A stretch of 46,983 nucleotides of DNA, taken from the NCBI GenBank assembly GCA_036268235.1, contig DATAUN010000071.1, positions 1 to 46,983 of the forward strand. The letters run 5' to 3'. This stretch comes from Gaiellaceae bacterium. Its GTDB lineage: Bacteria > Actinomycetota > Thermoleophilia > Gaiellales > Gaiellaceae. The stretch's first letter is position 1. Each line of letters opens with the position of its first letter. The notes under the pieces were generated by a model. It saw only the letters and a list, made by a program, of their open reading frames with translations, had not been told where the DNA came from and searched no databases. Shown in pieces: positions 3,124 to 42,445 of this stretch. The translations under genes were made by a program, and so were the position numbers.

Positions 3124-5655
3124 CTACTCGATCCGGAACGAGACCTGCGTGCGGGTCGGCTTCGCGGCGAGCGGCAGCGTCGGCCAGGCCGCGAGCCGCA
3201 GCTGGTAGCCGCCCGGCGGCAGGCGCACGCTCGTCGGGCCGCGACCGGTGATCCCGAAGCTGTACGAGCCGGGCAGCAGATCGCGCAGGCGCGCCATCAC
3301 GCCGAGGTACTCGCCCGCGCTCGAGTAGAGCAGGATGTCGAGCCGACGCACCGGCAGGATCTGCACGCCGCTGTCGCGCACCACGGCGCCGGCCTGCACC
3401 GACAGGATCGAGGGGTCGGTGTCGGACGCGGCGAACGACGTCTTGCTGAGCGACACCTTCCCGAGCAGGCTGCCGGCCGGCTGCTTGAAGAGGAGCGCCC
3501 ACGGAACGCGCAGCGTCTCGCTGCCCGAGGCGGCGACGCGGATCGCACCCGTGAGCATCCGCACGCGGGGCGCCGCCGCTGCGAGAACCGAGATCTGCAC
3601 TTGCCTCGCACGGCCGACGCCGAGCACGAACGACGCCGGCTCGACTCGGAAGCGCAGCGCTTCCGAGTCGCCGTCGATCGCTGCCGTGAGCGACACGACG
3701 AGCCGCCGCGTCGAGACGTTGCGCACCGTCAGCGTGCGCGTCGCATGCCAGTGCGCGCCCTGCCAGAGCCCGAAGCCGAGGCTCATCGGCGTGGACGCGA
3801 GCTCGCCGACGGCCGACGCGCCCAGATCGAGGTCGCCGTCACCGACAGCCGTCGCCGGCGCGGGATCGGGCTGCGCATAGCCCGCGAGCAGGCTGTCGAG
3901 CGCAGGCCCGTCGAGCGCGGGCCGCAGCTCCGCGAGCAGCGCCGCGGCGCCCGCGACCGTCGCCGCGGCAGCACTCGTGCCATTCACCGTCCCGTACAGC
4001 GCGGAGCCGTCGGTCGCCTGACCGGGCTCGGAGGTCGCGATCGAGACGCCGGGCGCGGCAACGTTCGGCTTCACGCCGCTGTCGTAGGCGAGGCCGCGCG
4101 ACGAGAAGCCGGCGACGAGCCCGCGATCGTCGTTGGCGGTCGTATGTGTGTTGCCGATCGCGATCCCGACGTCAATGCCGGCGCGCCGCGCCGCGAGCAG
4201 CTCTGCCGCGGCAGCTGTCGGGACGACGACCGTCGGTGCGGTGGCGTCGTCGGAGAGCCGCAGCCCGCCGGGCGGGAGCGCGTTGCCGTAGAGAACGACC
4301 GCAGCGGCGCCCGCCTGCGAGGCCGCGACCACCGTCGCCTCGGGGTCGGCGCCGACCGGCACGACGACCGCACGCCCGGCGACGTCGCTGTAGCCGCGCG
4401 CGTTGAAGAACGTGTTCGCCGGGCCCGTCGCCGCGACCTGGAGCGTCAGAACGTGCGCCGGCGTCGCCGCGCCGAGCAGCGGCTGCGTGCGATCGAGGAT
4501 CACGTCGAGCCCGCGGCGAAGCACCACACGTACCTCCGGCAGCTGCGCGCGCGAGTCGGTCGCTGCAACGGCGAGGGCCGCGGGCGCGCCGGCGGGGCCG
4601 GCGACGGAGCCGAACGACGGACCGGCAGCGCCGTCGTTGCCGGCCGGCGTGACGACGATCGTGTTCAGGTCGAGCGCGCCCTGCACTGCCTGAGCCTCGG
4701 GGCCGTCCGCAAAGGCGGCGTACGGCTCGGCGACGCCGAGGAGCGCGATGCGCACTGCGTCGTGCGCATCGCCGTCGCCGTTCGGGTCGACCGCCCGGTC
4801 GAGCCCGGCGATCAGCTGGTCGCTGCGCGCATACACGGCGTCCTTCCCGCTCGTCGCCGGCTGCCAGCCGGCGACGCGGATCGGCAAGACCGTCGCACCC
4901 GGTGCGACGCCGTGCAGTCCGCCCGGGCCGCCGGAGCCGACGAGGATTCCCGCAAGCTCGGTCCCGTGCTGCTCGAGCTGCGACGGGTTCTGCGGGTCGG
5001 CCTGCGCGGTTGCATCGTCGCCGTGACCGACTTCGTCGATGCCGGGCAGCACATGACCGCGGAGGTACGGCTGCGCCTCGTCGACCCCGGTGTCGAGGAG
5101 GGCGATCGTCACGCCGCCTCCGTCGACACCCGGTAGCTCAGCCGACGGCCGGTGCCCGGAAAGCGCCGAGTAGGCCTTCGACGCGAGCACGTGCTCCGAG
5201 ACCGACGCGGGATACGCAGCGCGCACCGGATAGATCCCGGTCACCTCCGGCATCTCGTCGAGCAACGAGACGGCGCGCGGGTCGAGCTGCGCCGAGAACC
5301 CGTCGAGCACGCGGTAGTAGCTGTAGTCCGGCTTCACCGTGATGCCGAGCGCCGACAGCTGAAGCAGCACTTCGTTCTGCGCGGCGGCCGCGGACGCGTA
5401 CCACGTCTTCTCCTGCACCTCCGTCGCGAACCCGTCCTGCTGCTTCACGCGCTCGGCAACCGACGGCGTCTTGAGGACGACGATCATCCGGCCCGCAAGC
5501 GGCACCGCTGCACGCGCGCCGCCGACGAGCCCGAGCCAGCTGACCGGCGGCAGCGGCGGGCTGGTGTCGCGGCCCGGCGCGACGACGACCGCCGCGAGCG
5601 CGATCGTCACACCCGCGACGCCGAGGAGCAGCGCGCTACGCGGTTGGACGCGCAT
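3124..5655 (-). CDS. Secreted subtilisin-like serine protease (peptidase S8) with a long C-terminal extension
   Basis: N-terminal signal/TM segment (SALLLGVAGVTIALAAVVVA). Catalytic triad contexts VTIALLDTGVD (Asp), HGTELAGILVG (His) and NGTSAAAATVAGAAALL (Ser), with oxyanion Asn in PAGNDG. The start overlaps the tsaD 3' end by 20 nt. Confidence 0.9.
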   Translation of the reverse strand: MRVQPRSALLLGVAGVTIALAAVVVAPGRDTSPPLPPVSWLGLVGGARAAVPLAGRMIVVLKTPSVAERVKQQDGFATEVQEKTWYASAAAAQNEVLLQLSALGITVKPDYSYYRVLDGFSAQLDPRAVSLLDEMPEVTGIYPVRAAYPASVSEHVLASKAYSALSGHRPSAELPGVDGGGVTIALLDTGVDEAQPYLRGHVLPGIDEVGHGDDATAQADPQNPSQLEQHGTELAGILVGSGGPGGLHGVAPGATVLPIRVAGWQPATSGKDAVYARSDQLIAGLDRAVDPNGDGDAHDAVRIALLGVAEPYAAFADGPEAQAVQGALDLNTIVVTPAGNDGAAGPSFGSVAGPAGAPAALAVAATDSRAQLPEVRVVLRRGLDVILDRTQPLLGAATPAHVLTLQVAATGPANTFFNARGYSDVAGRAVVVPVGADPEATVVAASQAGAAAVVLYGNALPPGGLRLSDDATAPTVVVPTAAAAELLAARRAGIDVGIAIGNTHTTANDDRGLVAGFSSRGLAYDSGVKPNVAAPGVSIATSEPGQATDGSALYGTVNGTSAAAATVAGAAALLAELRPALDGPALDSLLAGYAQPDPAPATAVGDGDLDLGASAVGELASTPMSLGFGLWQGAHWHATRTLTVRNVSTRRLVVSLTAAIDGDSEALRFRVEPASFVLGVGRARQVQISVLAAAAPRVRMLTGAIRVAASGSETLRVPWALLFKQPAGSLLGKVSLSKTSFAASDTDPSILSVQAGAVVRDSGVQILPVRRLDILLYSSAGEYLGVMARLRDLLPGSYSFGITGRGPTSVRLPPGGYQLRLAAWPTLPLAAKPTRTQVSFRIE

Positions 5656-6571
5656 CGAGCGAAAGGTACTCCGGATACGGGACGGCCTCGGTGTAGCGCC
5701 CCGCCGAGGCGATCATCGCGGCGTTGTCGGTACAGAGGGCCAGGGGAGCGAGCGCTGCGCCGGGCAGCGCCGCGCGCAGTTCGGAGTTGGCGGCGACGCC
5801 GCCGACGACCGCGATCCGCTCGGCTCCCGTCGCCTCGATCCGCTCGACGAGCGCGCGCACGATCGCGCGCTGGTAGCTCGCGGCGAGATCTGCCTTGCGC
5901 GCCTCGAGCTCCGCCGGCGGGAGGTCGCGCACCTTGTAGAGCAAGGCCGTCTTCAGGCCCGAGAAGGAAAAGTCGAGCCCGGGCACGCGCGCGACCGGAA
6001 AGTCGTACGCGGTCGGGTCACCTTGCTTCGCGAGCGCGTCGATCTCCTTGCCGCCCGGATAGCCCAAGCCGAGCAGGCGGGCTCCCTTGTCGAACGCCTC
6101 GCCCGCCGCATCGTCGAGGGTCGTGCCGAGCACGCGATACCCGCCGCGGTCCTCCACGTCGAGCAGCATCGTGTGGCCGCCGCTCGCAAGCAGGCACGTG
6201 AACGGTGGCTGAAGGTCGAGCGGCTTCAGGTAGAGCGACGCGACGTGGCCGTGGAGATGGTTGACGGCAATGAGCGGCAGCCGCCGCGACCAGGCGAGTG
6301 CCTTGGCGGCGGACACGCCGACGAGAAGCGCGCCGATCAGCCCCGGGTGCGACGTGACGGCGATCGCGTCGATCGCATGCCCGTCCATCGCCTCGGAGAT
6401 GACCGGCGCGATCAGCTCCAAGTGCCTCCGGCTCGCAACCTCAGGCACGACACCGCCGAAGCGCGCGTGCAGCTCGTCCTGCGACGCAACCACGTTTGAT
6501 GCAATTTCGCCGTCGTGGGTAACGACCGCAGCTGCGGTCTCGTCGCAGCTCGTTTCGATGCCGAGGATCAC
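5636..6571 (-). CDS. tsaD: tRNA N6-adenosine threonylcarbamoyltransferase TsaD (Kae1/Gcp family)
   Basis: ILGIETSCDETAAAVV at the N-terminus, HxxGH-type LHGHV, and GGVAANSELR. The ORF track extends to 6703. I prefer the GTG at 6571 directly before ILGIETS, and the alternative ATG at 6658 cannot be excluded. Confidence 0.88.
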   Translation of the reverse strand: MILGIETSCDETAAAVVTHDGEIASNVVASQDELHARFGGVVPEVASRRHLELIAPVISEAMDGHAIDAIAVTSHPGLIGALLVGVSAAKALAWSRRLPLIAVNHLHGHVASLYLKPLDLQPPFTCLLASGGHTMLLDVEDRGGYRVLGTTLDDAAGEAFDKGARLLGLGYPGGKEIDALAKQGDPTAYDFPVARVPGLDFSFSGLKTALLYKVRDLPPAELEARKADLAASYQRAIVRALVERIEATGAERIAVVGGVAANSELRAALPGAALAPLALCTDNAAMIASAGRYTEAVPYPEYLSLDARPTA

Positions 6572-6656
6572 CCTAGGCTCCGGCGAAATCGCTAGTTGCG
6601 AGAGTTGTTGCTGGTTCGACACACGCACGCGGGCCTCGGCGCGCGACGCTACTCGC

Positions 6657-7283
6657 ATGCAGATCGTGGTCGACGTGCACGAGCCGAAGCCGATGGAGCG
6701 CACGCTTCGTGCCCTGGGGCTCGACGTTCTCGTGATGAGCTTGCGCGCGGGTGATTACATGATCGATGACGTCGCGGTCGTCGAGCGAAAGACAGTGCGC
6801 GATCTCCACCTTTCGGTTATACAGGGACGCCTTTGGCGACAGCTGAGCCTCATCCGCCGTCGCGCACCCTGGCGATACCTGCTCATCGAGGGACAGTCGA
6901 TGTACGACGGCCCTGTCTCGAGCGAAGCGATCAGGGGACTCGTAATCGCGGTCGACGAGCTTGGCGTTTGCGTTGTGCACTCGCGGGATCTCCAAGACTC
7001 GGCCGCGTGGCTCACACGGATTGCCCGTCGCCGCCTTGGCGAGCACCGAACGATCGATCGGCCGGTCTACGCGCAACGACCAAAGCGCGAGCCTGGCGTC
7101 TCGCCGCCGGAGCAAGCGCTCTCCGCCGCTGCAGGGATCTCGACGGTCACAGCACGAACGCTCCTCGGGCGATTCGGCTCTCTTCTGGAAGTACTGAGCG
7201 CTCCCCCGGAGGAGCTGCAGCGTGTCCCGGGTGTCGGCGCCAACCGCGCCCATGCGATTCATAGCCTCGCGCAGAGCAACTAG
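6657..7283 (+). CDS. ERCC4/XPF-Mus81-type nuclease domain protein with a C-terminal (HhH)2 domain
   Basis: Signature AGDYMIDDVAVVERKTVRDL (GDx(n)ERKxxxD). C-terminal GISTVTARTLLGRFGSLLEVLSAPPEELQRVPGVGANRAHAI (tandem helix-hairpin-helix). 208 aa from the ATG at 6657. Sampled stretches are 57-58% GC against about 77% in neighbours. Confidence 0.8.
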   Translation: MQIVVDVHEPKPMERTLRALGLDVLVMSLRAGDYMIDDVAVVERKTVRDLHLSVIQGRLWRQLSLIRRRAPWRYLLIEGQSMYDGPVSSEAIRGLVIAVDELGVCVVHSRDLQDSAAWLTRIARRRLGEHRTIDRPVYAQRPKREPGVSPPEQALSAAAGISTVTARTLLGRFGSLLEVLSAPPEELQRVPGVGANRAHAIHSLAQSN

Positions 7284-7308
7284 CGATTCCGGCGTCAGCC
7301 GGAATCGC
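7283..7308. terminator. Perfect 11-bp stem / 4-nt loop hairpin (GCGATTCCGGC-GTCA-GCCGGAATCGC) bridging the convergent stop codons of the ERCC4 gene and rimI
   Basis: Read directly. The left arm starts at the last base of the ERCC4 TAG. The loop contains the rimI stop (TCA on +). The right arm is the last rimI codons (GDSG). Confidence 0.55.
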
Positions 7309-7756
7309 CAGACTCTCTCCACATGATCAACGCGTCTTCTCGATTGTCCGTGTAGTAGCCGCGCCTGACGCCGCGTGGCTCGAAGCCCAGCTGCTCGTAC
7401 AACCGGATCGCCCCTTCGTTCGAGACGCGCACCTCGAGTGTGTAGCCGCGCCGTTCGTCGTCCTGCGTCAGCTCGAACAGCCGCTCGAGCAGCGCGGTCG
7501 CGATGCCGCGGCGCGCGCGGTCCGGATCGACGGCGACGTTCATCACGTGCCATGCGTCGACGTAGCGCGAGTTGATCACGTACCCGGCAAGCTCGTCGCC
7601 TTCGAACGCGCCGAGGCAGATCGACGTCGGCTTTGCGAGCTCGGACGCGAACATCGAGCGCGACCACGGCGTCGGATATGCGCGCTGCTCGATCGACTCG
7701 ATCGCGCCGAGATCGCCGAGCTCGAGCACACGGATGTTGACGGCGACCGCGGTCAT
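7295..7756 (-). CDS. rimI: Ribosomal-protein-alanine N-acetyltransferase RimI (GNAT)
   Basis: IESIEQRAYPTPWS, the acetyl-CoA motif RRGIATALL, and the GYYTDNREDALIMW C-terminus. ATG at 7756 overlaps the tsaB stop (ATGA). The upstream part of track ORF 7295..7978 is Arg-rich shadow. Confidence 0.85.
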   Translation of the reverse strand: MTAVAVNIRVLELGDLGAIESIEQRAYPTPWSRSMFASELAKPTSICLGAFEGDELAGYVINSRYVDAWHVMNVAVDPDRARRGIATALLERLFELTQDDERRGYTLEVRVSNEGAIRLYEQLGFEPRGVRRGYYTDNREDALIMWRESGDSG

Positions 7757-8301
7757 TGCTGCGGCTTCGCGTCGGGCTCGCGCACGTACAGCGGCTCGAC
7801 GAGCTCGGCCGGCCCGAACGAGCCGGCGCGTTCCAGGAGCAGCAGCGGATCGGGGCGGTGCGCCGCGTCGTCGTCCGCCGGGATCGTCGCGCCGGCCGCC
7901 TCGAACACCTCGCGGTAGCGAATCGCGCCGTCGCCGACGAGCGTCAGCCCGTCGACGTCGAGCTCCTCGGGCCGGCACACGCGCGGGCCGGGCGAGAACA
8001 CCTCGCCGCGCCGAGCGTCGATCACCGGCGTTCCCTCGGCATACGCGTCGAGCGTCGACGCGCCGGCGACCGGCACATCGAGCGACAACGAGAGGGCGCG
8101 CGCCGCGGCAAGCCCGATGCGGATGCTCGTGAAGCTGCCGGGGCCGCGTCCGACGACGATCCCTTCGAGCGCACGTGGGTCGTCGACGAGCTCGTCGACG
8201 GCGGCGAGCAGGTCGCCGGCGCGTTCGGCGCGAGCGCGGGCGCCGGTCGAGACGCCGCAGACCGCGCCGAACGAGGTGGCGGTGTCAAAGGCCAAGATCA
8301 C
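7753..8301 (-). CDS. tsaB: tRNA threonylcarbamoyladenosine biosynthesis protein TsaB (YeaZ)
   Basis: MILAFDTAT... and GRGPGSFTSIRIGLAAARAL. Position between tsaE and rimI. Confidence 0.85.
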   Translation of the reverse strand: MILAFDTATSFGAVCGVSTGARARAERAGDLLAAVDELVDDPRALEGIVVGRGPGSFTSIRIGLAAARALSLSLDVPVAGASTLDAYAEGTPVIDARRGEVFSPGPRVCRPEELDVDGLTLVGDGAIRYREVFEAAGATIPADDDAAHRPDPLLLLERAGSFGPAELVEPLYVREPDAKPQQ

Positions 8302-8704
8302 TGTCGATCCTCACGCTCCGGTGCGACTCGTCGACGTGCCCGAGCCTAACGACGCTGCGCGCCCGCGGGAGCCAGTCCCCACCGTGCTCGGGCCATTCGA
8401 CGAAGGCAACCGTGCCGTCGAAGTACGGCTCCAGGTCGCCCCACTCCTCGGGATCGAGGCCGGCAATGCGGTACAGGTCGAGGTGCGCGACCGGGATCGG
8501 AGCCTCGTACCGGTGGCCGATCGTGAACGTCGGGCTCGAGACGGGGCCGGTCACGCCGAGCGCCCGGGCGGCGCCGCGCACGAAGGTCGTCTTGCCCGCG
8601 CCGAGCTCACCCGAGACCGCGACGACGTCGCCCGCGCGCAGCGACCGCGCCAGGTCGGCCGCAAGGGCTTCGGTCTCCGCGGGAGAGCTTGTGACCACCT
8701 CCAC
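8285..8704 (-). CDS. tsaE: tRNA t6A ATPase TsaE (YjeE)
   Basis: P-loop GELGAGKTTFVRG, SPTFTI, and HLDLYR motifs. 139 aa. Confidence 0.85.
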   Translation of the reverse strand: MEVVTSSPAETEALAADLARSLRAGDVVAVSGELGAGKTTFVRGAARALGVTGPVSSPTFTIGHRYEAPIPVAHLDLYRIAGLDPEEWGDLEPYFDGTVAFVEWPEHGGDWLPRARSVVRLGHVDESHRSVRIDSDLGL

Positions 8705-8713
8705 CCCGGGAGG

Positions 8714-9361
8714 CTAGAACAGGCCGAGCTGGACCGGCTGTTCCGGAGCCGCGTCGACCACGGGCTCCGGCTCGGGCGGCGGAGCAACGGCGATGCCGAG
8801 CAGCTCCGGGATGCGCGCAAAATCCTCCTGGAGCACCTGGAGCATCCGCGGCGTGTACAGCGCGGCAGCGGGATGGAAGATCGGATAGAGCGTCACCGGG
8901 TTGCCGCCGAGCACGACGTCCTGCCGGCGGCCGTGCACCTGCGTGATCCCGTTCGGGCGGCCCGACAGGAGCTTCGTCGCGAAGTTGCCGAGCGTGCAGA
9001 TGAGCTTCGGCTGGATCAGCTCGATCTGCCGCCAGAGATGCGGCTCGCAGGACTCGATCTCCTCCGGCAGCGGGTCGCGATTGCCGGGCGGGCGGCACTT
9101 CAAGACGTTGGCGATGTAGACGTCGTCGCGGCTGAGGCCGATCCCGTCGAGGAGCTTCGAGAGCAGCTGCCCGGCCGCGCCGACGAACGGCACGCCCTGC
9201 TTGTCCTCGTGGAAGCCGGGCGCCTCGCCGACGAACATCAGGTCGGCGTCGGGCGAGCCCGAGCCGAAGACCACCTGCGTGCGTCCCTCCGCGAGGGCGC
9301 ATTTCGTGCAGCCGGCGACGACGTCGCCGTACGCGAGGAGCGAGAGGTCAGCAGCAGCCAC
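8714..9361 (-). CDS. Uracil-DNA glycosylase, family 4 (Fe-S type)
   Basis: Motif A FVGEAPGFHEDKQGVPFVG, motif B HPAAAL, and Cys ligand contexts CTKC, VLKCRPP and CEPHL. Confidence 0.9.
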   Translation of the reverse strand: MAAADLSLLAYGDVVAGCTKCALAEGRTQVVFGSGSPDADLMFVGEAPGFHEDKQGVPFVGAAGQLLSKLLDGIGLSRDDVYIANVLKCRPPGNRDPLPEEIESCEPHLWRQIELIQPKLICTLGNFATKLLSGRPNGITQVHGRRQDVVLGGNPVTLYPIFHPAAALYTPRMLQVLQEDFARIPELLGIAVAPPPEPEPVVDAAPEQPVQLGLF

Positions 9362-34373: not shown

Positions 34374-37201
34374 AGCGTCAGCGCGTCACGCGCGATGCGG
34401 TCCTGCTCGATCAGGTGCGCCGTCGGGTAGCCCTCGGACGGGCTCGCGCGCCACGGGCGGCCGAGGTAGCGCAGCTTCACGCCGTTTGCCGCCTCCTCGA
34501 GGCGGTGGCGAATCGAGCGCCACGGCCCCATGTTCTGCGGCTCTTCCTGCGCCCACACGACCTCTTCGAGCGACGGATACGACGCGACGAGCTGGTGCGT
34601 CGCCTCGATCGGAAACGGATACAGCTGCTCGATGCGCGCGACCGCGATCGCGTCGGCGCCGGCGGCGCGCGCCTCGTGCCCGACGATGTCGTAATAGACC
34701 TTGCCGCTGCAGAGGACGAGGCGGCGCACGGCGCTCTTGTCCTCGCGCGAATCGTCGAGCACCGGCTGGAACGCGCCCTGGCTGAGGTCGTCGAGCGTCG
34801 AGGCTGCCTCCTTCAGGCGCAGTAGGCCCTTCGGCGTGACGACGACGAGCGGGCGCGCCTGCGCGTCGAGTGCCTGGCGGCGCAGCAGGTGGAAGTACTG
34901 CGCGGCGGTCGTACAGTTCGCGATCCGGATGTTCTCCTGCGCACCGAGCTGCAGGAACCGCTCGAGACGCGCACTCGAGTGCTCGGGGCCGTTGCCCTCG
35001 TAGCCGTGCGGCAGCAGCAGCGTCAGGCGCGACGTCTCGCGCCACTTCGACAGCGCCGACGAGATGAACTGGTCGATGATGATCTGCGCGCCGTTCGCGA
35101 AGTCGCCGTACTGCGCCTCCCAGAGGATGAGCGCCTCGGGCGCGGCGGCCGAGTAGCCGTACTCGAAACCGAGGCATGCGTACTCGGAGAGCGGCGAGTT
35201 GTAGACCTCGAACGACGCGGTCGCTTCGTCGAGGTGCTGCATCGGCGTGTACGTCTCGTTCGTGTGCACGTCGTGCAGCACGAGATGACGCTGCGCGAAC
35301 GTGCCGCGCTGCACGTCCTGTCCGGTGAGCCGCACCGGGATGCCGTCGACGAGGAGCGAGGCGTACGCGAGCGACTCCGCGTGCCCCCACTCGATGCCGC
35401 CCTCGCTGAGCGCGGTGCGCCGGCGGTCGAGCTGCTTCGCGAGCTTGGGATGCACGGTGAACTCGTCCGGCCAGTGCAGGAGCTCCTCGTTGAGCCCGGC
35501 GAGCGTGTCGGCTGCGACCGCGGTGACGACCTCGGCGGTCGTCGACGGCGGGATCGTGCCGTCGTGCTCGACCTTGCCGCCGTCGCCGAACGATGCCTTC
35601 AGCCGGTCGTGCGCCGCGCGGAGCATCTGCTCGACCTCCGAGACGAAACCGTCGGCCTCCTCCTGCGTCAGCACGCCCTCTTCGATCAGGCGCTCCTGGT
35701 AGAGCTCGCGAACGCTTCGGTGCGCATTGATCTGCTCGACCATCAGCGGCTGCGTGTACGCGGCCTCGTCCTGCTCGTTGTGGCCGAAGCGCCGGTAGCC
35801 GACGAGATCGACGACGACGTCCTGTGCGAAGCGGCGGCGGTATGCCATGGCGAGCCGCACGGCCGCGATCGACGCCTCGGGATCGTCCGCGTTCACGTGG
35901 ACGATCGGGCAGTCGAAGCCTTTCGCGAGGTCGGACGAGTAGCGCGTTGAACGGCCCTCGTTCGGATCGGTCGTGAACCCGATCTGGTTGTTCGTGATCA
36001 GATGAAGGGTGCCGCCGGTCGAGTAGCCCGCGAGCCCGTGCAGATTGAACGTCTCCGCGACGATCCCCTGACCCGCGAACGCGGCGTCTCCGTGCAGCAG
36101 CACTGCGAGCGCGACGGACGGGTCGTGCGCACCGTTCTTCGTCGAGCGGTCGGTCTGCTCGGCGCGCGTGCGCCCTTCGACGACGGGGTTCACGGCCTCG
36201 AGATGGCTCGGGTTCGCGACGAGGCGCACGCCGACCTTCCCGTTCGTCGTCGTGCGAGTGCCGGCGGCGGAGAGGTGGTACTTCACGTCGCCGGTGCCGC
36301 CCTCGGGATCGGACGCGACGGCGTCGATCGTCCGCTCGCCTTCGAACTCGCGCAGGATGTACTCGTACGGCATGCCGATCGTGTGCGCGAGCACGTTGAG
36401 GCGGCCGCGGTGCGCCATGCCCATGACGACGTCGTGCGCGCCGGCCTCGGCCGCGAGCTCAATCGTCTCGTCGAGCATCGGGATCATCACGTCGAGCCCC
36501 TCGACCGAGAACTGCTTCTGCCCGAGGAACCGCTTGCGCAGGAAGCGCTCCATCCCCTCGACCTCGCAGAGACGGCGGAAGAGCGCGACCTTCTCGTCGC
36601 GGCTGAGCTCCTGCCGGTAGCGGCCGGACTCGATCGCCTGACGCAGCCACACACGCTGCTGATGATCGGAGAGGTGCTCGAGCTCGTACGCGATCGTGCT
36701 GCAGTAGGTCTCCGCGAGCTGCGGCAGGACGTCGGCCAGTGTCTCGCCCGGCACGTGCACGCGCAGCACGGAGGCGGGGATGCGCGCCTGGAGCTCAGGG
36801 GTCAGCTTCGGCTCGAGGCGCAGCGGCTCGAGCGACGGATCGCCGACCGGCTCGGAGCCGAGCGGGTCGAGGCGCGCCGCGAGGTGACCGTGCGTTCGGT
36901 GCGCCTTGACGAGCGCCATTGCCGCCGCGACGCCGCCGAGGAGCTGCGCGTCGGGCGCCGCGGCAGGCGCGGGCTCCGCGACCGCGGGTGCCGGCGCAGC
37001 GGCATGGCCGTTTCCGCTCCCGTTGTGCGGCAGCTGCTCAAGCAGCCGAGCGATGCCGGGGTGCGTCGCGACGAGCGCGGAATCACCGCTCTCGAAGAGC
37101 GCGCGCCACTCCGACGGGACCGCTTCCGGATTCTCGAGGTACTCGTCGAGCAGGGCGCGCGCGTAGCCGGCATTCAGGCCGTCGACGTCGTGCGTGCTCA
37201 C
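34370..37201 (-). CDS. sucA: 2-oxoglutarate dehydrogenase E1 component
   Basis: 943 aa. N-terminal NAGYARALLDEYLENP, ThDP region GMAHRGRLNVLAH...LHGDAAFAGQG, and a transketolase-like C-terminal half. Confidence 0.95.
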   Translation of the reverse strand: MSTHDVDGLNAGYARALLDEYLENPEAVPSEWRALFESGDSALVATHPGIARLLEQLPHNGSGNGHAAAPAPAVAEPAPAAAPDAQLLGGVAAAMALVKAHRTHGHLAARLDPLGSEPVGDPSLEPLRLEPKLTPELQARIPASVLRVHVPGETLADVLPQLAETYCSTIAYELEHLSDHQQRVWLRQAIESGRYRQELSRDEKVALFRRLCEVEGMERFLRKRFLGQKQFSVEGLDVMIPMLDETIELAAEAGAHDVVMGMAHRGRLNVLAHTIGMPYEYILREFEGERTIDAVASDPEGGTGDVKYHLSAAGTRTTTNGKVGVRLVANPSHLEAVNPVVEGRTRAEQTDRSTKNGAHDPSVALAVLLHGDAAFAGQGIVAETFNLHGLAGYSTGGTLHLITNNQIGFTTDPNEGRSTRYSSDLAKGFDCPIVHVNADDPEASIAAVRLAMAYRRRFAQDVVVDLVGYRRFGHNEQDEAAYTQPLMVEQINAHRSVRELYQERLIEEGVLTQEEADGFVSEVEQMLRAAHDRLKASFGDGGKVEHDGTIPPSTTAEVVTAVAADTLAGLNEELLHWPDEFTVHPKLAKQLDRRRTALSEGGIEWGHAESLAYASLLVDGIPVRLTGQDVQRGTFAQRHLVLHDVHTNETYTPMQHLDEATASFEVYNSPLSEYACLGFEYGYSAAAPEALILWEAQYGDFANGAQIIIDQFISSALSKWRETSRLTLLLPHGYEGNGPEHSSARLERFLQLGAQENIRIANCTTAAQYFHLLRRQALDAQARPLVVVTPKGLLRLKEAASTLDDLSQGAFQPVLDDSREDKSAVRRLVLCSGKVYYDIVGHEARAAGADAIAVARIEQLYPFPIEATHQLVASYPSLEEVVWAQEEPQNMGPWRSIRHRLEEAANGVKLRYLGRPWRASPSEGYPTAHLIEQDRIARDALTL

Positions 37202-37253
37202 CCCTCTAGTTGTACCAGGGGCGATGCAGTTGTCCTCTCCCCTAGACGAGGGG

Positions 37254-37514
37254 CTAGTAGAGCGGGTGATGCGTGAGGATCTGGATCGCGGCGCCGACGA
37301 CGAAGCAGACGCTGACGATGGCGAACCCGACCCGGACGATGCGCTGCTCGGGGCCGCTCATGACGGTCGCGATCAGGAGCAGGATCACCGCGGCGGGCGC
37401 CATGCGGAACGGGCGGTAGAAGAGCTCCATCGCGCCGAGGAAGCACGCGCCTGCGGCGATGATTCCCGCAACGGCTTCGCTCGGCTTGATCGGTTCGCGC
37501 GCGGTCTGCGTCAC
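37254..37514 (-). CDS. Small (86 aa) 3-TM membrane protein, unknown function
   Basis: Hydrophobic segments VAGIIAAGACFLGAM, APAAVILLLIATVM, VGFAIVSVCFVVGAAIQIL. Its ATG overlaps the stop of the gene upstream (ATGA). Confidence 0.5.
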   Translation of the reverse strand: MTQTAREPIKPSEAVAGIIAAGACFLGAMELFYRPFRMAPAAVILLLIATVMSGPEQRIVRVGFAIVSVCFVVGAAIQILTHHPLY

Positions 37515-37756
37515 GACGCGACTCTATCGCGCCGGGCATGACGAGCCCGGGCGGAGTCGCGCGTGCCGTGCGGGCCGCCGCGGCGCGGACGCGGGCCGGT
37601 GGTCTTGCGCCACGGCCGCCAGATCGAATAGTCGCCGGGATCGACGCCCGGCTCGGGCTCCGCCTTGATCGCGTACCAGACGACGACGCCCAGGTAGACG
37701 ATCGGGATCTTCAGTACGAAGAACAGGAAGACAAAGCCCCACGCTTGGCCCGACAT
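37511..37756 (-). CDS. Small (81 aa) single-TM protein with a basic tail, unknown function
   Basis: ATG at 37756 (MSGQAWGFVFLFFVLKIPIVYLGVVVWYAI). The longer track version would overlap the MMPL promoter region. Confidence 0.45.
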   Translation of the reverse strand: MSGQAWGFVFLFFVLKIPIVYLGVVVWYAIKAEPEPGVDPGDYSIWRPWRKTTGPRPRRGGPHGTRDSARARHARRDRVAS

Positions 37757-37836
37757 TGAGTCAAAGTGTACGAGATCCGTTCCGCTTCCGGATTGCCTCC
37801 GGTCTGACCCCGGGGCCGCAGGTACAGTCGCCACGG

Positions 37837-39987
37837 ATGACGCGTCTGGCACATGTCGTCCTGCGGCACCGCAAGCTCGTCGTGGGCGTGTGGCTCGCGT
37901 TGACGCTCTTCGGGGCCTTCTCGGCGAGCCAGGTGTCGAAGCGCTGGTACCAGTCGTTCTCGATCCCCGGCTACTCGGCGTACGAGGCGAACCAGCGGAC
38001 GCTCAAGGCGTACGGCAGCGGCGAGGCGCCGCCGCTCGAGGCGATCGTCACCGTTCCCGGCGACGTCACGAAGACGGCGGGCGTCAAGCAGGCGCTTGCT
38101 GCAGCGGCGAAGGCGAGCCCGGACTCGCGCTCCAGTTCGTACTTCACGACGGGCAGCTCGTTGTACGTGTCAAAGGACCACCACACGACGTACGAGCAGG
38201 TGTTCCCGTCCGGTAACCCGGGCTTCAGCTCGTCGGTCGGAGACGACCCCATTCGCAAGGCGCTCTTCGCTGCGCTGCCACCGGGCGCCACCGGGCATGT
38301 GACGGGCTACGACGCGCTCGCCGAAGCGGCAACCAAAGGTGGTGGCAACGGCAGCCCGTCGGTGCTCGGCGAGACGCTGATCGGCGGCATCGGTGCACTC
38401 GTCATCCTGCTCTTCGTCTTCGGCACGCTGCCCGCGGTCGCGATGCCGTTGGCCACCGCGATCGCCGCGATCCTCAACACGTTCACGCTCGTGTGGCTGC
38501 TGACGTACATCACGAACGTGTCGATCATCGTGCAGTTCCTGATCGCCCTCGTCGGGCTCGGTGTCGCGATCGACTACGCGCTGTTGATCATCTTCCGCTT
38601 CCGCGAGGAGCTCCGTCACGGGCAATCGGTCGACGACGCGGTCGTCACGACGATGCGCCACGCAGGACGCTCCGTGATCGTCTCCGGCTCGACGGTCGCC
38701 GTCGGATTGCTCAGCATGGTCTTCCTGCCGCTGCCGTTCATCCGCTCGATCGGAATCGGCGGCCTGTTGATTCCCACGGTGTCAGTGATCGCGTCGATCA
38801 CGCTGCTGCCGGCGATGCTCGCGCTGCTCGGCACGCGCATCAACCGCGGCCGCGTGATGCCGAAGCGGATCGTCGAAGGCACCGACGCCGAAGCCGGCTT
38901 CTGGAACTGGTGGGCGAACGTCGTGCGCCGGCGCGCGCCGGTCACTGCGGCGATCGGCGTCGTCATCGTCGCCGCGCTGTTGATTCCCGGCGTGCAGCTC
39001 AATCCGAGCCAGGCACAGGCGAAGGACCTGCCGGGCGGCGGTGACGCGATCGCCGGCCGCACCGCGCTGACGAACGCCGGCTTCTCCGCAGGCGTCTACA
39101 CGCCGTACGAGGTGCTGCTCGAAGGGAACGTGACGAAGGCGAAGATCGCGCGCGTGACGGCGGACGTCGCGAAGGCAGACGGCGTCGACGGCGCGGTCGC
39201 GCCGAGCGCCTGGGCGCGTCAAGGAAAGGCGATCGTCGAGGCGGTGCCGAACGCCGACGGATCGTCGGGGACCACGAAGCGGGCGATCTCGCGCCTGCAG
39301 CACACGGTGCTGCCGGCCGCGGCCGCGGCAACCGGGCTGCGCGTCACGCTCGGCGGCGTCGCGGCGGAGAACGAGGACTTCGTGCACGCGGTCTACGGCA
39401 ACTTCCCGTACGTGCTCCTCTTCGTCGTGCTGCTGACGTACATCCTGCTCGCGCGCGCGTTCCGCTCGCTGCTGCTGCCGCTGAAGGCGGTCGTGCTGAA
39501 TCTCGTGTCGCTCGGCGCCGCCTACGGCATCGTCGTCTTCATCTTCCAGTGGGGGCACGGCTCGGAGGCGATCTGGAACGTGCCTGGGACAGGCGCGATC
39601 ATCTCGTGGATCCCACTGATGATCTTCGCGTTCCTGTACGGCCTCTCGATGGACTACGAGGTCTTCATGCTGACCCGGATGCGCGAGGCGTACGACGAGT
39701 CGGGCGACACGTCGAAGGCAATCGCGTACGGCCTGTCGCGCACCGGCAAGCTCGTGACGAGCGCGGCACTCGTGCTGTGCCTCGCGTTCTTCGTCCTCTC
39801 GACGAGCCCCGGTACGGACATCAAGCAGTTCGGGATCGGCCTCTCGGCGGGCGTCATCTTCGACGCGACGATCATCCGCGCGCTGCTCGTGCCGTCGATC
39901 ATGCAGCTGCTCGGTCGCTGGAACTGGTACTTCCCGCGGCCGGTGGCGCGCATCCTGCTCGCCGAGCCCGCGCTCGACCCGCAGTAG
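37837..39987 (+). CDS. MMPL/RND-superfamily transporter
   Basis: ATG at 37837 (MTRLAHVVLRHRKLVVGVWLAL). Two 6-TM bundles with two large extracytoplasmic loops. GLGVAIDYALLIIFRFREEL and GLSMDYEVFMLTRMREA motifs. Confidence 0.9.
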   Translation: MTRLAHVVLRHRKLVVGVWLALTLFGAFSASQVSKRWYQSFSIPGYSAYEANQRTLKAYGSGEAPPLEAIVTVPGDVTKTAGVKQALAAAAKASPDSRSSSYFTTGSSLYVSKDHHTTYEQVFPSGNPGFSSSVGDDPIRKALFAALPPGATGHVTGYDALAEAATKGGGNGSPSVLGETLIGGIGALVILLFVFGTLPAVAMPLATAIAAILNTFTLVWLLTYITNVSIIVQFLIALVGLGVAIDYALLIIFRFREELRHGQSVDDAVVTTMRHAGRSVIVSGSTVAVGLLSMVFLPLPFIRSIGIGGLLIPTVSVIASITLLPAMLALLGTRINRGRVMPKRIVEGTDAEAGFWNWWANVVRRRAPVTAAIGVVIVAALLIPGVQLNPSQAQAKDLPGGGDAIAGRTALTNAGFSAGVYTPYEVLLEGNVTKAKIARVTADVAKADGVDGAVAPSAWARQGKAIVEAVPNADGSSGTTKRAISRLQHTVLPAAAAATGLRVTLGGVAAENEDFVHAVYGNFPYVLLFVVLLTYILLARAFRSLLLPLKAVVLNLVSLGAAYGIVVFIFQWGHGSEAIWNVPGTGAIISWIPLMIFAFLYGLSMDYEVFMLTRMREAYDESGDTSKAIAYGLSRTGKLVTSAALVLCLAFFVLSTSPGTDIKQFGIGLSAGVIFDATIIRALLVPSIMQLLGRWNWYFPRPVARILLAEPALDPQ

Positions 39988-41426: not shown

Positions 41427-41960
41427 TCAGTGGGCGTGGCGCGCGCGGTACGCGCTCACCTTGGCCCGGTTGCCGCAGCTCTCCATCGAGCACCAGGCGC
41501 GCGAGCGGTTCTTCGCCGTGTCGAGAAACGCCCAGCGGCAGTCGTCGGCGCGGCAGGCCTTCATACGCTCCCAGGTCCCGTCGCTCATCGCACGCGCGAC
41601 GTCGGCGAGGATCTGCCCGACCGCGCCGCGAGCGCCGCCGACGCCGGGGACGAGACGCATCTCACAGTCGACGAACCGCAGCGCGAGCTTCGCACGGCAA
41701 ATCGCGTCGTCGAGCTCGGCGCCGGCGGGCGCGATGTCGACGGCGATCTCGTTCTGCTCCGCGAGCAGGTCGCGGAGTGCCTCGCGCACGCGCTTCGCCT
41801 CCTCGAGGTCGGCAGTGCTCACGCGCGAGCCGGGCTCCAGCAACCCCCGGTCGACGAGCCAGTCGCCGAGGGCGCGCGGGGTTTCGAGCGTCTCCTGGTA
41901 GGGACGCAGGTCAACCGTGTTCACGAAATCGAGGATCAATTGATGGTCGTTTGTCACCAT
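41427..41960 (-). CDS. CGNR zinc-finger protein (ABATE N-terminal domain plus zf-CGNR), putative stress-responsive regulator
   Basis: N-terminal LDFVNT. C-terminal C...C(RW)F.D....R.WCSM..CGNRAK..AYR motif present verbatim (CRWAFLDTAKNRSRAWCSMESCGNRAKVSAYRAR). Confidence 0.9.
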   Translation of the reverse strand: MVTNDHQLILDFVNTVDLRPYQETLETPRALGDWLVDRGLLEPGSRVSTADLEEAKRVREALRDLLAEQNEIAVDIAPAGAELDDAICRAKLALRFVDCEMRLVPGVGGARGAVGQILADVARAMSDGTWERMKACRADDCRWAFLDTAKNRSRAWCSMESCGNRAKVSAYRARHAH

Positions 41961-41976: not shown

Positions 41977-41986
41977 GTTACGTAAC
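41977..41986. promoter_or_regulatory. Perfect 10-bp palindrome GTTACGTAAC in the AT-rich divergent region between the CGNR gene and 42035..42415
   Basis: Read directly. A GGTTAC half-site recurs at 42005-42010, and GGTTACGT recurs at 41382-41389 downstream of the CGNR gene. Confidence 0.3.
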
Positions 41987-42034
41987 TGCTATCATCGTAT
42001 CACTGGTTACACGAATGGCAAAGGGAGGCAGGAC

Positions 42035-42415: not shown

Positions 42416-42445
42416 CGCTCGGCTTCGCCGGTTATAGAACGACTC

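What the first reader, a model, noticed from the sequence alone, without database searches (positions are those of the whole stretch)
6572..7308. Low-GC ERCC4/XPF-type nuclease gene inserted on the opposite strand inside the t6A operon
In Actinobacteria tsaE-tsaB-rimI-tsaD are normally contiguous and co-directional, for example Rv3422c-Rv3419c in M. tuberculosis. Here a 208-aa ERCC4 nuclease sits between rimI and tsaD on the other strand. It has the complete GDY...VVERKTVRD active-site signature and a tandem HhH domain.

Two sampled 60-nt stretches of the gene are 57-58% GC, against about 77% in a tsaB stretch. Its codons are visibly less GC3-biased (gat tac atg atc gat, tat aca, gta atc). That points to horizontal acquisition. 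Stand-alone XPF/Mus81-like nucleases are characteristic of archaea and eukaryotes, and their role in bacteria is not defined. No partner gene (helicase, PCNA-like, immunity or modification gene) is adjacent.
Basis: partly seen in the sequence, partly recalled or inferred. Interest (0 to 1): 0.65.

Follow-up and report, generated by a model that had tools for sequence, protein, structure and literature searches.

The report
Bacterial XPF-type nuclease cassette splitting t6A operon
A soil actinobacterium carries an intact archaeal-style XPF/Hef DNA-cutting enzyme gene wedged backwards between two normally overlapping housekeeping genes; the insertion is old, sits at the same spot in many related lineages, and is missing from about three quarters of them.

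Summary
Window 6657-7283 (+) encodes a 208-aa ERCC4 + tandem helix-hairpin-helix nuclease with every XPF catalytic residue. The predicted fold matches A. pernix XPF and the Hef nuclease domain. The gene lies between rimI (7295-7756, -) and tsaD (5636-6571, -). Its GC3 is 0.74, against 0.86-0.93 for neighbours.

The reading "low GC, therefore recent horizontal arrival" is not supported. The gene occupies the same site and orientation in at least 19 Gaiellaceae/Thermoleophilia lineages (TsaD 68-96% identical). Its tree broadly tracks the flanking genes. dN/dS is 0.15-0.21. The GC3 deficit of 12-27 points appears in all 11 orthologous loci measured.

The gene is nevertheless an insertion and accessory. 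Nine of 12 relatives sampled through TsaD, and all outgroups, have rimI and tsaD adjacent with no nuclease gene; most show a clean rimI-stop/tsaD-start overlap.

Best reading: an ancient, site-fixed, dispensable short-XPF homodimeric endonuclease acting on branched DNA, probably weakly expressed. Relatives at 25-34% identity occur in archaea, on Pseudomonas megaplasmids and in integrative elements.

Two features are unexplained. Terminal inverted repeats bound the cassette. An antisense open frame runs from the rimI stop to the tsaD start.

The parts
6657..7283 (+). Gene for a 208-aa short XPF/Hef-type nuclease: ERCC4 domain (residues 1-126), conserved linker DRPVYAQRP, tandem HhH (about residues 150-206)
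   Evidence: Pfam ERCC4 3.5e-16, HHH_5 5.7e-07. NCBIfam Hef model positions 572-777 of 781, 8.7e-37. Family profile against A. pernix XPF 2bhn/2bgw over the full length, 7e-45. AF2 pLDDT 92.3; Foldseek top hits XPF and Hef.
5636..6571 (-). tsaD (311 aa), start GTG at 6571-6569. The ancestral GTGA stop/start tetranucleotide is still present
   Evidence: Pfam TsaD 2.7e-80; translation; junction comparison.
6572..6656 (.). 85-nt divergent spacer between the tsaD start and the ERCC4 start. No sigma-70 consensus was found
   Evidence: Spacer lengths in orthologous loci are 62, 65, 80, 86, 89 and 92 (all equal to 2 mod 3). The exceptions are 85 (window and L001), 88 and 93 (for the 62-nt case).
6581..6599 (.). 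tsaD-proximal arm of the terminal inverted repeat (CGGCGAAATCGCTAGTTGC)
   Evidence: the repeat finder I1: 19 nt, 89% complementary to 7276-7294, the top inverted repeat of the region. 0 of 300 shuffles reach the score. The motif occurs only at the cassette ends plus one weak site in the 47-kb window.
7276..7294 (.). rimI-proximal arm of the terminal inverted repeat. It overlaps the ERCC4 stop codon (TAG 7281-7283)
7268..7322 (.). Strong hairpin (arms 7273-7293 and 7298-7318) between the convergent ERCC4 and rimI genes, with the rimI stop codon (7295-7297) in its loop. It looks like a bidirectional terminator and has no U-tract
   Evidence: strand folding: -27.5 kcal/mol (z -5.0) on the + strand and -39.0 kcal/mol (z -7.7) on the - strand. 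An equivalent hairpin of different sequence is present in every occupied locus.
7295..7756 (-). rimI (153 aa). Its last codons form the outer arm of the hairpin
   Evidence: Pfam Acetyltransf_1 6.3e-18; translation.
6573..7322 (-). Antisense open frame (249 codons from GTG 7322; the full ORF is 6573..7667). It spans the whole cassette on the operon strand and stops at TAG 6575-6573, one nucleotide before the tsaD GTG. This is the candidate 'bridge' ORF
   Evidence: A cassette-spanning antisense frame is open in 11 of 17 occupied loci, and in 8 of them it ends on the TGA of the GTGA overlap.
7753..9361 (-). Upstream operon genes: tsaB (7753-8301), tsaE (8285-8704) and a family-4-type uracil-DNA glycosylase (8714-9361). 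They are syntenic in occupied loci, empty loci and some outgroup loci

Best explanation
The gene encodes an intact short XPF/Hef-type structure-specific endonuclease: an ERCC4 nuclease domain followed by (HhH)2. By homology it acts as a homodimer that binds duplex DNA through the HhH pairs and cuts one strand next to a branch point, such as a 3' flap, a fork or a nicked junction.

It sits in a roughly 725-bp cassette. That cassette was inserted once, long ago, exactly into the overlapping rimI-stop/tsaD-start (GTGA) of the t6A operon, in an ancestor of a Gaiellaceae-level clade of Thermoleophilia.

Since then it has been inherited mostly vertically. It evolves about three to four times faster than its neighbours but remains under purifying selection. 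It has been lost, or replaced by the empty allele, repeatedly, so only about a quarter of sampled relatives keep it. It is therefore a dispensable accessory repair/recombination nuclease rather than a core gene or a fresh arrival.

I attribute its lower GC3 to weak selection on synonymous sites. The gene is probably weakly expressed, being convergent with and antisense to the operon. Mutation would then pull such sites towards A/T.

Shown: identity, motif integrity, fold, site fidelity, patchy distribution, selection regime, persistent GC3 deficit. Inferred: dimer, substrates, cellular role, single origin, cause of the low GC3.
For: Identity. Pfam, NCBIfam and PDB profile matches. The catalytic columns D6, E9, D33, E43, R44, K45 and D49 are conserved across bacterial, archaeal and PDB sequences. 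The model has pLDDT 92.3. Its best structural matches are A. pernix XPF and the Hef nuclease domain (TM 0.89, rmsd 1.5 A).

Site fidelity. The order tsaD <- | ERCC4 -> | <- rimI-tsaB-tsaE-UDG is found in L001, L002, L004/L010, L007-L009, L011-L014, L023, L062, L067, L088, L090, L095, L170/L171 and the contig carrying P0186.

Vertical descent. The ERCC4 NJ tree recovers the same two major clades and most subclades as the flank trees.

Selection. dN/dS is 0.21, 0.18 and 0.16 against L001, L002 and L062. Both dN and dS are above those of all six flanking genes in each comparison, by about 2-5 fold against the t6A and UDG genes.

Composition. ERCC4 GC3 is 0.66-0.84, against 0.85-0.99 for neighbours, in all 11 loci measured.

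Accessory status. In sampling through TsaD, which is blind to ERCC4, 3 loci are occupied (L088, L090, L095) and 9 are empty (L087, L089, L172, L173, L091-L094, L099). All outgroup loci with both rimI and tsaD on the contig (TsaD 53-61%; L098, L100-L105, L107-L109) lack the nuclease.

Soil-metagenome contigs cover tsaD and rimI at depths of mostly tens to hundreds (bins from about 6 to over 2,000). Depth falls to 0-25 over the cassette.
Against: No biochemical or expression data exist, and no RNA run holds the region.

Most empty alleles show the same clean junction, with the rimI stop and the tsaD start sharing a (G/T)TGA in L087, L089, L093, L094 and L099 (L092 has a TAA stop and L091 a 124-nt spacer). 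Independent deletions would not be expected to recreate this. Yet L087 and L089 sit inside the occupied clade A in the flank trees. Simple repeated loss is therefore mechanistically awkward. Allele replacement by homologous recombination, or precise excision, must be invoked.

Clade A is a near-star radiation (TsaD 82-90% for all pairs), so gain and loss counts are soft. L170 carries an ERCC4 that groups with more basal lineages than its flanks do. The crenarchaeal short XPF needs PCNA, which bacteria lack, and no clamp-binding motif is evident. The terminal inverted repeats are not explained by this account.
Confidence: 0.6

Rival explanations
1. Recent horizontal insertion. The gene arrived lately from a lower-GC donor (archaeon, phage or plasmid), and the low GC/GC3 is the un-ameliorated donor signature.
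For: GC3 is 0.74 against 0.86-0.93 for neighbours. Empty sites exist in relatives with 89-91% identical TsaD. The protein type is archaeal or plasmid-like.
Against: The same site and orientation are found in at least 19 lineages, down to 68-72% TsaD identity. ERCC4 alleles are only 42-84% identical to each other and broadly co-diverge with the flanks. The GC3 deficit is present in all 11 orthologous loci measured. The closest non-clade relatives are only 25-34% identical. There is no phage match.
Confidence: 0.04
2. Selfish site-specific cassette. The nuclease gene, bounded by inverted repeats, is or was a mobile or homing-type element. It targets the ultra-conserved rimI/tsaD junction, and the nuclease promotes its own insertion, retention or precise excision. 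On this view it does not serve host repair.
For: One fixed site lies next to the invariant tsaD 5' coding sequence (GIETSCDET). Presence is patchy and the empty alleles are clean.

The terminal inverted repeat is 17/19 in the window. It is significant in 10-11 of 16 loci against shuffles.

L097 has no ERCC4 but carries a 306-nt insert at the same junction. That insert has 21-nt, 95% complementary terminal repeats that share the core CGGC[A/G]AAATCGC with the window's repeat.

The gene evolves fast and has a lower GC3. Homologues sit on Pseudomonas megaplasmids and in an element with integrase, ParA and SSB genes. XPF enzymes cut hairpin and branch junctions, which is the kind of structure the repeats can form.
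Against: The ERCC4 tree is largely congruent with the flanks. There is no second copy of the repeat motif or the gene in the 47-kb window. Only one clade member was found at another site (L005, next to dnaX). No target-site duplication is visible by inspection. The repeat sequence drifts between lineages while the two arms stay complementary, which is more typical of a nucleic-acid structure than of a protein recognition site. The catalytic residues are intact in every aligned homologue that covers the motif, and no clearly decayed copy is seen, unlike a classical homing cycle. No XPF-family homing enzyme or transposase is known (my own knowledge).
Confidence: 0.14
3. Single-gene anti-phage or anti-plasmid defence nuclease kept as a presence/absence polymorphism by fluctuating selection.
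For: Patchy distribution among close relatives, fast protein evolution and atypical composition.
Against: No PADLOC family matches, even at E <= 1. There is no partner, sensor or immunity gene, and no defence-island context. The site is inside a housekeeping operon. dN/dS of 0.15-0.21 shows no sign of diversifying selection overall.
Confidence: 0.05
4. Ancestral core gene of the clade with nothing unusual.
For: Conserved position over deep divergence, and purifying selection.
Against: 9 of 12 TsaD-sampled relatives and all outgroups lack it. Composition is never native.
Confidence: 0.02

Closest known systems
Crenarchaeal short XPF (Aeropyrum pernix XPF, PDB 2BGW/2BHN; Sulfolobus XPF)
   Same: Same length class (about 210-235 aa) and the same two-domain layout. 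The family profile aligns residues 3-209 with 3-209 of the chain at E 7e-45. The GDXnERKX3D and D-x-x-E catalytic residues are identical. It is the best Foldseek match.
   Different: Only about 27-28% identity. The score is below the NCBIfam Arch_Xpf cut-off (56 against 300 bits). There is no C-terminal PCNA-interaction tail: the protein ends ...AIHSLAQSN, and tails vary among homologues. The host has no PCNA. The Arg of the D-x-R-E motif is His in most of the bacterial clade. The linker motif DRPVYAQRP is conserved.
Euryarchaeal Hef, C-terminal nuclease + HhH2 module (P. furiosus Hef, PDB 1J22-1J25, 1X2I)
   Same: Best NCBIfam hit: positions 572-777 of 781, 8.7e-37. The nuclease domain superposes at rmsd 1.5 A, with TM 0.89 normalised to the target.
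   Different: It lacks the whole N-terminal helicase (127 bits against a 610-bit cut-off). It is a stand-alone protein.
'ERCC4 domain-containing protein' of Pseudomonas megaplasmids and other proteobacterial elements (e.g. WP_024764837.1 on pPniHBP1_1)
   Same: Same architecture and size, and the same catalytic columns. It is bacterial and uncharacterised. On pPniHBP1_1 it is also a lone gene on the opposite strand to most of its neighbours.
   Different: 31-34% identity and a separate clade in the family tree. It is carried on plasmids or integrative elements among hypothetical genes, not fixed inside a chromosomal housekeeping operon.
Free-standing homing endonuclease genes (e.g. phage T4 seg/mob genes). 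This is a comparison of behaviour only, from my own knowledge
   Same: A lone nuclease gene inserted between conserved genes at one site. Presence among relatives is sporadic, empty alleles are clean, and composition is atypical.
   Different: The nuclease family is different. The host is a cell rather than a phage. The phylogeny is largely congruent with the host locus. No evidence of target cleavage exists.

Membership tests
XPF/Mus81/Hef nuclease family (Pfam ERCC4, PF02732) | ERCC4 domain model matched above the curated threshold | tested here: met
   59.8 bits against a cut-off of 24, residues 6-121.
XPF/Mus81/Hef nuclease family (Pfam ERCC4, PF02732) | Catalytic signature GDXnERKX3D plus the N-terminal acidic pair (human XPF D676/E679/D704/E714/R715/K716/D720, recalled from my own knowledge) | tested here: met
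   D6, E9, G32-D33-Y34, E43-R44-K45 and D49 are present. D33, Y34, E43, R44 and K45 are invariant in 30 homologues, and the columns are shared with ApXPF and PfuHef. The Arg after the first Asp is His8.
XPF/Mus81/Hef nuclease family (Pfam ERCC4, PF02732) | C-terminal tandem helix-hairpin-helix domain | tested here: met
   HHH_5 30.4 bits (cut-off 27). HHH_2 25.9 bits, just below its cut-off of 27. The profile aligns through residue 209 of ApXPF. The model shows five helices between residues 150 and 206.
XPF/Mus81/Hef nuclease family (Pfam ERCC4, PF02732) | Restriction-endonuclease-like nuclease fold | tested here: met
   pLDDT 92.3. Foldseek probability is 1.00 to 2bhn/2bgw, and TM 0.88-0.89 (normalised to the target), rmsd 1.5-1.6 A to 1j22/1j24.
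XPF/Mus81/Hef nuclease family (Pfam ERCC4, PF02732) | Dimerisation and cleavage of branched DNA | not testable with these tools
   Needs protein biochemistry or a multimer prediction.
Crenarchaeal short XPF (NCBIfam NF040956) | Equivalog model score at or above the cut-off | tested here: not met
   56.2 bits against 300.
Crenarchaeal short XPF (NCBIfam NF040956) | C-terminal PCNA-interacting motif on which activity depends (my own knowledge of the Sulfolobus and Aeropyrum enzymes) | tested here: not met
   The C-terminus ...RAHAIHSLAQSN has no Qxx[LIM]xx[FY][FY]-type motif. Tails are variable or basic (…YRSRRSRE) in homologues.
Hef (NCBIfam NF010337) | Helicase domain fused to the nuclease, and a full-length model score | tested here: not met
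   Only model positions 572-777 match; 126.6 bits against 610.
Free-standing homing endonuclease gene | Sporadic presence at one conserved site, with intact empty alleles in relatives | tested here: met
   At least 19 occupied loci at one site. 9 of 12 TsaD-sampled relatives are empty, most with the stop/start overlap intact.
Free-standing homing endonuclease gene | Gene phylogeny discordant with the host locus (horizontal spread) | tested here: inconclusive
   The trees are largely congruent. One mild discordance is seen (L170). Transfer limited to close relatives would not be visible at this sampling.
Free-standing homing endonuclease gene | The enzyme cleaves the empty target site | not testable with these tools
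   Biochemical assay needed.
IS/MITE-type transposable element | Terminal inverted repeats | tested here: met
   6581-6599 against 7276-7294, 17/19. Significant in 10-11 of 16 loci. L097 has 21-nt repeats at 95%.
IS/MITE-type transposable element | Target-site duplication, multiple genomic copies, and a recognisable transposase | tested here: not met
   No flanking direct duplication is seen by inspection. The motif is absent elsewhere in the 47-kb window apart from one weak site. The only domains are ERCC4 and HhH. Whole genomes were not searched.
Known anti-phage defence systems (PADLOC-DB 2.0) | Match to any defence-protein model | tested here: not met
   0 families at E <= 1.

The most novel reading that the evidence does not exclude
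The operon tolerates a backward-facing foreign gene inside an essential, translationally coupled gene pair. It does so because the operon strand keeps a 'bridge'. This is an open reading frame fully antisense to the nuclease gene. It starts at or near the rimI stop and ends on, or 1 nt before, the tsaD start. It is framed by terminal inverted repeats that abut both codons. Ribosomes, and hence Rho-protected transcription, would be carried across about 700 nt of antisense sequence to tsaD. On this reading the nuclease gene is entirely overlapped by a translated antisense ORF whose sequence is irrelevant and whose only function is to stay open.

Support:
- The frame is open in 11 of 17 occupied loci and ends exactly on the ancestral GTGA in 8 of them.
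- Spacer lengths of 62, 65, 80, 86, 89 and 92 nt all keep phase.
- The four loci with a broken frame form one subclade that shares a promoter-like cctgcc-N13-GATACT motif upstream of tsaD.
- L097 has no nuclease gene, yet it keeps a 306-nt structured insert with a 102-codon ORF running from TAG|ATG to GTGA.

Caveats:
- Shadow ORFs are common in GC-rich DNA.
- The depletion of CTA/TCA/TTA codons is no stronger than the genome-wide avoidance of those codons.
- The loci are phylogenetically related, so they are not independent observations.
Probability: 0.3. Interest if true: 0.75.

Novelty: new member of a known kind. Interest (0 to 1): 0.5.

Why it matters
XPF/Mus81/Hef nucleases are textbook archaeal and eukaryotic repair enzymes. 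A 2012 survey of PD-(D/E)XK nucleases still listed the ERCC4 family as 'Archaea & Eukaryota, no HGT observed' (PMC3424549). I found no paper in the searchable library that characterises a bacterial member.

This locus belongs to a coherent bacterial clade of roughly 85 clusters at 50% identity. Its catalytic site is intact and it is under long-term purifying selection. It therefore offers a natural test of what a PCNA-less short XPF does in a bacterium.

The genomic behaviour is also unusual: one fixed site inside an essential operon, about 25% occupancy, clean empty alleles, inverted-repeat ends and an antisense spanning frame. This makes the locus a compact system for two questions. How does an operon absorb an opposite-strand insertion? 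And is the nuclease a host tool or a selfish passenger?

The finding also cautions against reading low GC3 as evidence of recent transfer.

Tried and rejected
1. Long-range RNA pairing of the two terminal repeats in a read-through rimI-tsaD transcript. MFE folds of 17 cassettes keep the local hairpins in most loci. They use the long-range stem clearly only in L012 and L067. In L097 the terminal stem does close the insert. This idea is not supported as a general rule.

2. RNAduplex energies of cognate against non-cognate ends. These were too noisy in GC-rich sequence to be informative. I replaced them with an ungapped complementarity score.

3. Selection against antisense stop codons in ERCC4. 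The raw test looked striking, with 11 observed against 93 expected. But flanking genes avoid CTA, TCA and TTA to the same relative degree. The rescaled expectation is 12-20, so the result is not robust.

4. Recombinant origin of the empty alleles L087 and L089 from clade-B empties. Sliding-window identities show no foreign tract at the junction.

5. ERCC4 remnants in the L097, L091 and L101 inserts. The best hmmsearch E-value is 0.15, which is not significant.

6. REP-like genome-wide palindrome family. The boundary motif is not repeated across the window.

7. Consensus promoters and terminators in 6300-7600. None were found.

8. RNA-seq evidence. No RNA run holds the region. Soil DNA contigs show only a depth drop over the cassette and no clean excision joint.

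9. My crude GC3-based gene caller picked shadow ORFs and was discarded.

10. The first genome-contig scan, using the 30-sequence alignment, failed for lack of a conserved stretch. It was repeated with 10 sequences. That scan only sees proteins with the motif [VI]ERK[TS]VRDL, so its taxonomic picture is biased.
Full report
**1. What is in the sequence**

Between 5.6 and 9.4 kb the minus strand carries, in transcription order:
- a family-4-type uracil-DNA glycosylase (8714-9361)
- tsaE (8285-8704)
- tsaB (7753-8301)
- rimI (7295-7756)
- tsaD (5636-6571)
- an S8 peptidase (3124-5655)

.

On the plus strand, between rimI and tsaD, lies a 627-nt ORF at 6657-7283. Its 208-aa product matches Pfam ERCC4 (59.8 bits, cut-off 24) and the HhH models. 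The best NCBIfam match is the C-terminal nuclease + HhH2 part of archaeal Hef: model positions 572-777 of 781, E 8.7e-37. No PADLOC defence model matches.

A profile of 30 homologues aligns end to end with A. pernix XPF (2BHN/2BGW, residues 3-209, E 7e-45). It also matches the Hef nuclease domain 1J22 at E 2e-36.

The catalytic positions D6, E9, D33, E43, R44, K45 and D49 are all present. They line up with the same columns in ApXPF, PfuHef, thaumarchaeal proteins and proteobacterial proteins. The only clade-specific change is His for Arg at position 8.

An AlphaFold2 model has mean pLDDT 92.3. Foldseek ranks A. pernix XPF first. The Hef nuclease domain superposes at rmsd 1.5 A with TM 0.89.

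**2. Composition**

The gene is 64.6% GC, against 69.8% for the window. Its GC3 is 0.737, against 0.86-0.93 for seven neighbours. GC1 and GC2 are ordinary. It is the longest stretch of the window in which no frame reaches 0.80 GC3. The direction is right.

**3. Not a recent insertion**

Protein and locus searches place the window in Gaiellaceae-like Thermoleophilia from soil.

The order tsaD <- | ERCC4 -> | <- rimI recurs in L001, L002, L004/L010, L007-L009, L011-L014, L023, L062, L067, L088, L090, L095, L170/L171 and the contig of P0186. That is at least 19 distinct loci.

Only one member of this protein clade was found elsewhere: L005, next to dnaX-ybaB-recR.

NJ trees of ERCC4 and of the flanks recover the same two major clades and most subclades.

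dN/dS is 0.21, 0.18 and 0.16 against L001, L002 and L062. The gene is therefore functional, but both dN and dS exceed those of all six flanking genes in each comparison, by about 2-5 fold against the t6A and UDG genes.

ERCC4 GC3 is 12-27 points below its neighbours in all 11 loci measured. A deficit that persists over this depth of divergence cannot be a donor signature. I read it as weak constraint on synonymous sites, with mutation pulling them towards A/T. This is an inference, consistent with the raised pS.

**4. Still an insertion, and dispensable**

A TsaD search is blind to ERCC4. It returned more than 120 clusters at 87-92% identity. Of five of these with long contigs:
- L087, L089, L172 and L173 have rimI and tsaD adjacent with no ERCC4 gene between them (a 4-nt overlap is called in L089, L172 and L173; ERCC4 absence was checked by tblastn in L087 and L089).
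- L088 is occupied. Its ERCC4 gene had simply not been called.

.

A TsaD-based metagenome scan added occupied L090 and L095 and empty L091-L094 and L099. All outgroup loci with both rimI and tsaD on the contig (L098, L100-L105, L107-L109; TsaD 53-61%) lack the nuclease. Unbiased occupancy is thus 3 of 12.

Five empty alleles (L087, L089, L093, L094, L099) share the same junction...(G/T)TGATCCTCGG..., where the rimI stop and the tsaD start overlap; L092 has a TAA stop at that position and L091 a 124-nt spacer. The occupied alleles still carry that GTGATCC at the tsaD start.

Soil metagenome contigs cover tsaD and rimI at depths of mostly tens to hundreds (individual bins run from about 6 to over 2,000). 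Depth falls to 0-25 across the cassette.

The awkward point is that L087 and L089 nest within the occupied clade A and show no foreign tract at the junction. Loss must therefore have been precise, or must have occurred by replacement with a closely related empty allele. Clade A is nearly a star radiation, so the number of events is uncertain.

**5. Origin and relatives**

A motif-restricted scan of species-representative genomes found bacterial hits only in Thermoleophilia/Gaiellaceae-type MAGs plus one Planctomycetota. The next hits were archaeal short XPFs at 24-33% identity.

A profile search also found 27-34% identical proteins of the same architecture in Thiobacillus, Acidovorax and Pseudomonas. 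tblastn found them on 145 plasmids, 131 of them Pseudomonas megaplasmids, and on no phage. One lies in an element with integrase, ParA and SSB genes.

In a family tree the Gaiellaceae-type, proteobacterial and archaeal groups form three separate clades. Their branching order is unresolved.

An exhaustive HMMER search gives 631 representatives at E <= 1e-30. About 85 short proteins rank above the first Hef-length proteins. The donor therefore remains unresolved: archaeal-type or element-borne.

**6. How it most likely works**

By homology, and not shown here: a homodimer in which each (HhH)2 binds duplex DNA and one ERCC4 active site cuts near a branch point. The crenarchaeal enzymes need PCNA through a C-terminal motif. 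That motif is absent here, and bacteria have no PCNA. Activity must therefore be clamp-independent or use another partner. The nearly invariant, low-pLDDT linker motif DRPVYAQRP is a candidate contact, but this is speculative.

The role is non-essential, given the many empty relatives.

**7. Cassette ends and the antisense frame (unexplained; partly followed up)**

In every occupied locus a strong hairpin covers the rimI stop and the ERCC4 stop. In the window it spans 7268-7322, with -39 kcal/mol and z -7.7 on the operon strand.

A second element mirrors its inner arm just upstream of the tsaD start. In the window, 6581-6599 is 17/19 complementary to 7276-7294, the best inverted repeat of the region. 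Such terminal repeats beat all or nearly all shuffles in 10-11 of 16 loci. Their sequence differs between lineages while the two ends stay matched. The motif is not a genome-wide repeat.

On the operon strand, the frame antisense to ERCC4 is open across the whole cassette in 11 of 17 loci:
- In 8 it ends on the TGA of the ancestral GTGA.
- In the window and L001 it ends at a TAG 1 nt before the tsaD GTG (6573-7322, 249 codons).
- In L014 it ends at TAG -26.

.

Spacer lengths of 62, 65, 80, 86, 89 and 92 nt all preserve that phase. The four loci with a broken frame are one subclade. They share a promoter-like cctgcc-N13-GATACT motif 57-62 nt upstream of tsaD.

L097 has no nuclease gene but carries a 306-nt insert at the same junction. 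The insert has these features:
- 21-nt, 95% complementary terminal repeats that share a 12-nt core with the window's repeat
- a fold closed by that terminal stem (z -8.8)
- a 102-codon ORF running from TAG|ATG to GTGA

.

Two readings remain open. The first is a bridge that keeps ribosomes and transcription flowing to tsaD. The second is that the repeats are relics or working ends of a mobile cassette.

Three points weigh against over-reading this:
- Shadow ORFs are common in GC-rich DNA.
- The apparent avoidance of antisense stop codons disappears once genome-wide codon avoidance is taken into account.
- The loci are not independent.

**8. Comparison with what is known, and verdict**

The protein passes every testable criterion for the XPF/Mus81/Hef family. 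It fails the equivalog thresholds for crenarchaeal Xpf and for Hef. It is a new, uncharacterised bacterial member of a known family.

A 2012 survey listed the family as archaeal and eukaryotic only. My literature searches found no study of a bacterial member or of this locus.

However, the insertion is ancient rather than recent, and low GC is not evidence for recency.

Interest is moderate (0.5). It is raised by the fixed-site presence/absence pattern and the unexplained cassette architecture. It is limited by the absence of any functional data.

Noticed in passing
window 6581-6599 and 7276-7294; equivalent ends in L001, L002, L008, L012, L011, L007, L010, L013, L067: The nuclease cassette is bounded by terminal inverted repeats. 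Each abuts a CTAG/ATAG, and on the rimI side this is the ERCC4 stop codon. The repeat sequence differs between lineages, but the two ends of each cassette stay complementary.
   Followed up: partly
window 6573-7667 (-); spanning frames in L001, L002, L062, L088, L011, L007, L010, L013, L014, L095: An open frame antisense to the nuclease gene runs from the 3' end of rimI to the tsaD start codon. In 8 loci it ends on the ancestral GTGA. Four loci with a broken frame share a promoter-like GATACT motif upstream of tsaD.
   Followed up: partly
L097:391-702: A lineage without the nuclease gene has a 306-nt, highly structured insert at the same rimI/tsaD junction (MFE z -8.8). It has 21-nt terminal inverted repeats and a 102-codon ORF that starts directly after the rimI TAG and ends on the tsaD GTGA. 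It may be a decayed or non-autonomous relative of the cassette.
   Followed up: partly
L101:2640-3010; L091:2880-3000; L102:760-830: Other lineages carry different short inserts at the same junction. L101 has a 365-nt insert with a small same-strand ORF rich in RFDKVDA repeats. L091 and L102 have hairpin-rich spacers of 124 and about 80 nt. The rimI/tsaD junction appears to be a permissive or preferred insertion point.
   Followed up: no
window 3124-9361 compared with L001: Synonymous divergence between the window and its closest relative differs on the two sides of the cassette. pS is 0.12-0.15 for rimI, tsaB, tsaE and UDG, but 0.24-0.25 for tsaD and the S8 peptidase. This suggests a recombination breakpoint at or near the cassette.
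   Followed up: no
L174 (Pseudomonas nitroreducens pPniHBP1_1, 389685-390386) and 144 other plasmids: A 31-34% identical ERCC4-HhH2 gene is carried by 131 Pseudomonas megaplasmids. In pPniHBP1_1 it is also a lone gene on the opposite strand to most of its neighbours, which are hypothetical genes.
   Followed up: partly
L006:4617-5261: A distant homologue (28% identity) lies in what looks like an integrative element, with SSB, M48 peptidase, phage-type integrase, DUF4942 and ParA genes.
   Followed up: no
L005:5746-5860 and 6546-6575: This is the one clade member found at another site, divergent from dnaX-ybaB-recR. It has two copies of a ~34-nt element spaced 76 nt apart (gccat[ct]tctctcccgttggtcg[ta]gagatgg...) upstream. 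It also has the same 'TAG + hairpin' arrangement at its 3' end.
   Followed up: no
L067:6001-6407; L023:6001-6476: In L067 the ERCC4 match is split over two reading frames; in L023 it is also split into two pieces (frames not checked). These may be pseudogenes or long-read assembly errors. L023 also has frameshifts in neighbouring genes, whereas L067 does not.
   Followed up: no
window 37198-37852 and 41978-42619: Other stretches with depressed third-position GC hold ORFs with no Pfam match. Nearby are an ABATE/zf-CGNR regulator (41427-41960), tRNA-Ala(GGC) at 42744-42816 and rsfS (43288-43644).
   Followed up: partly
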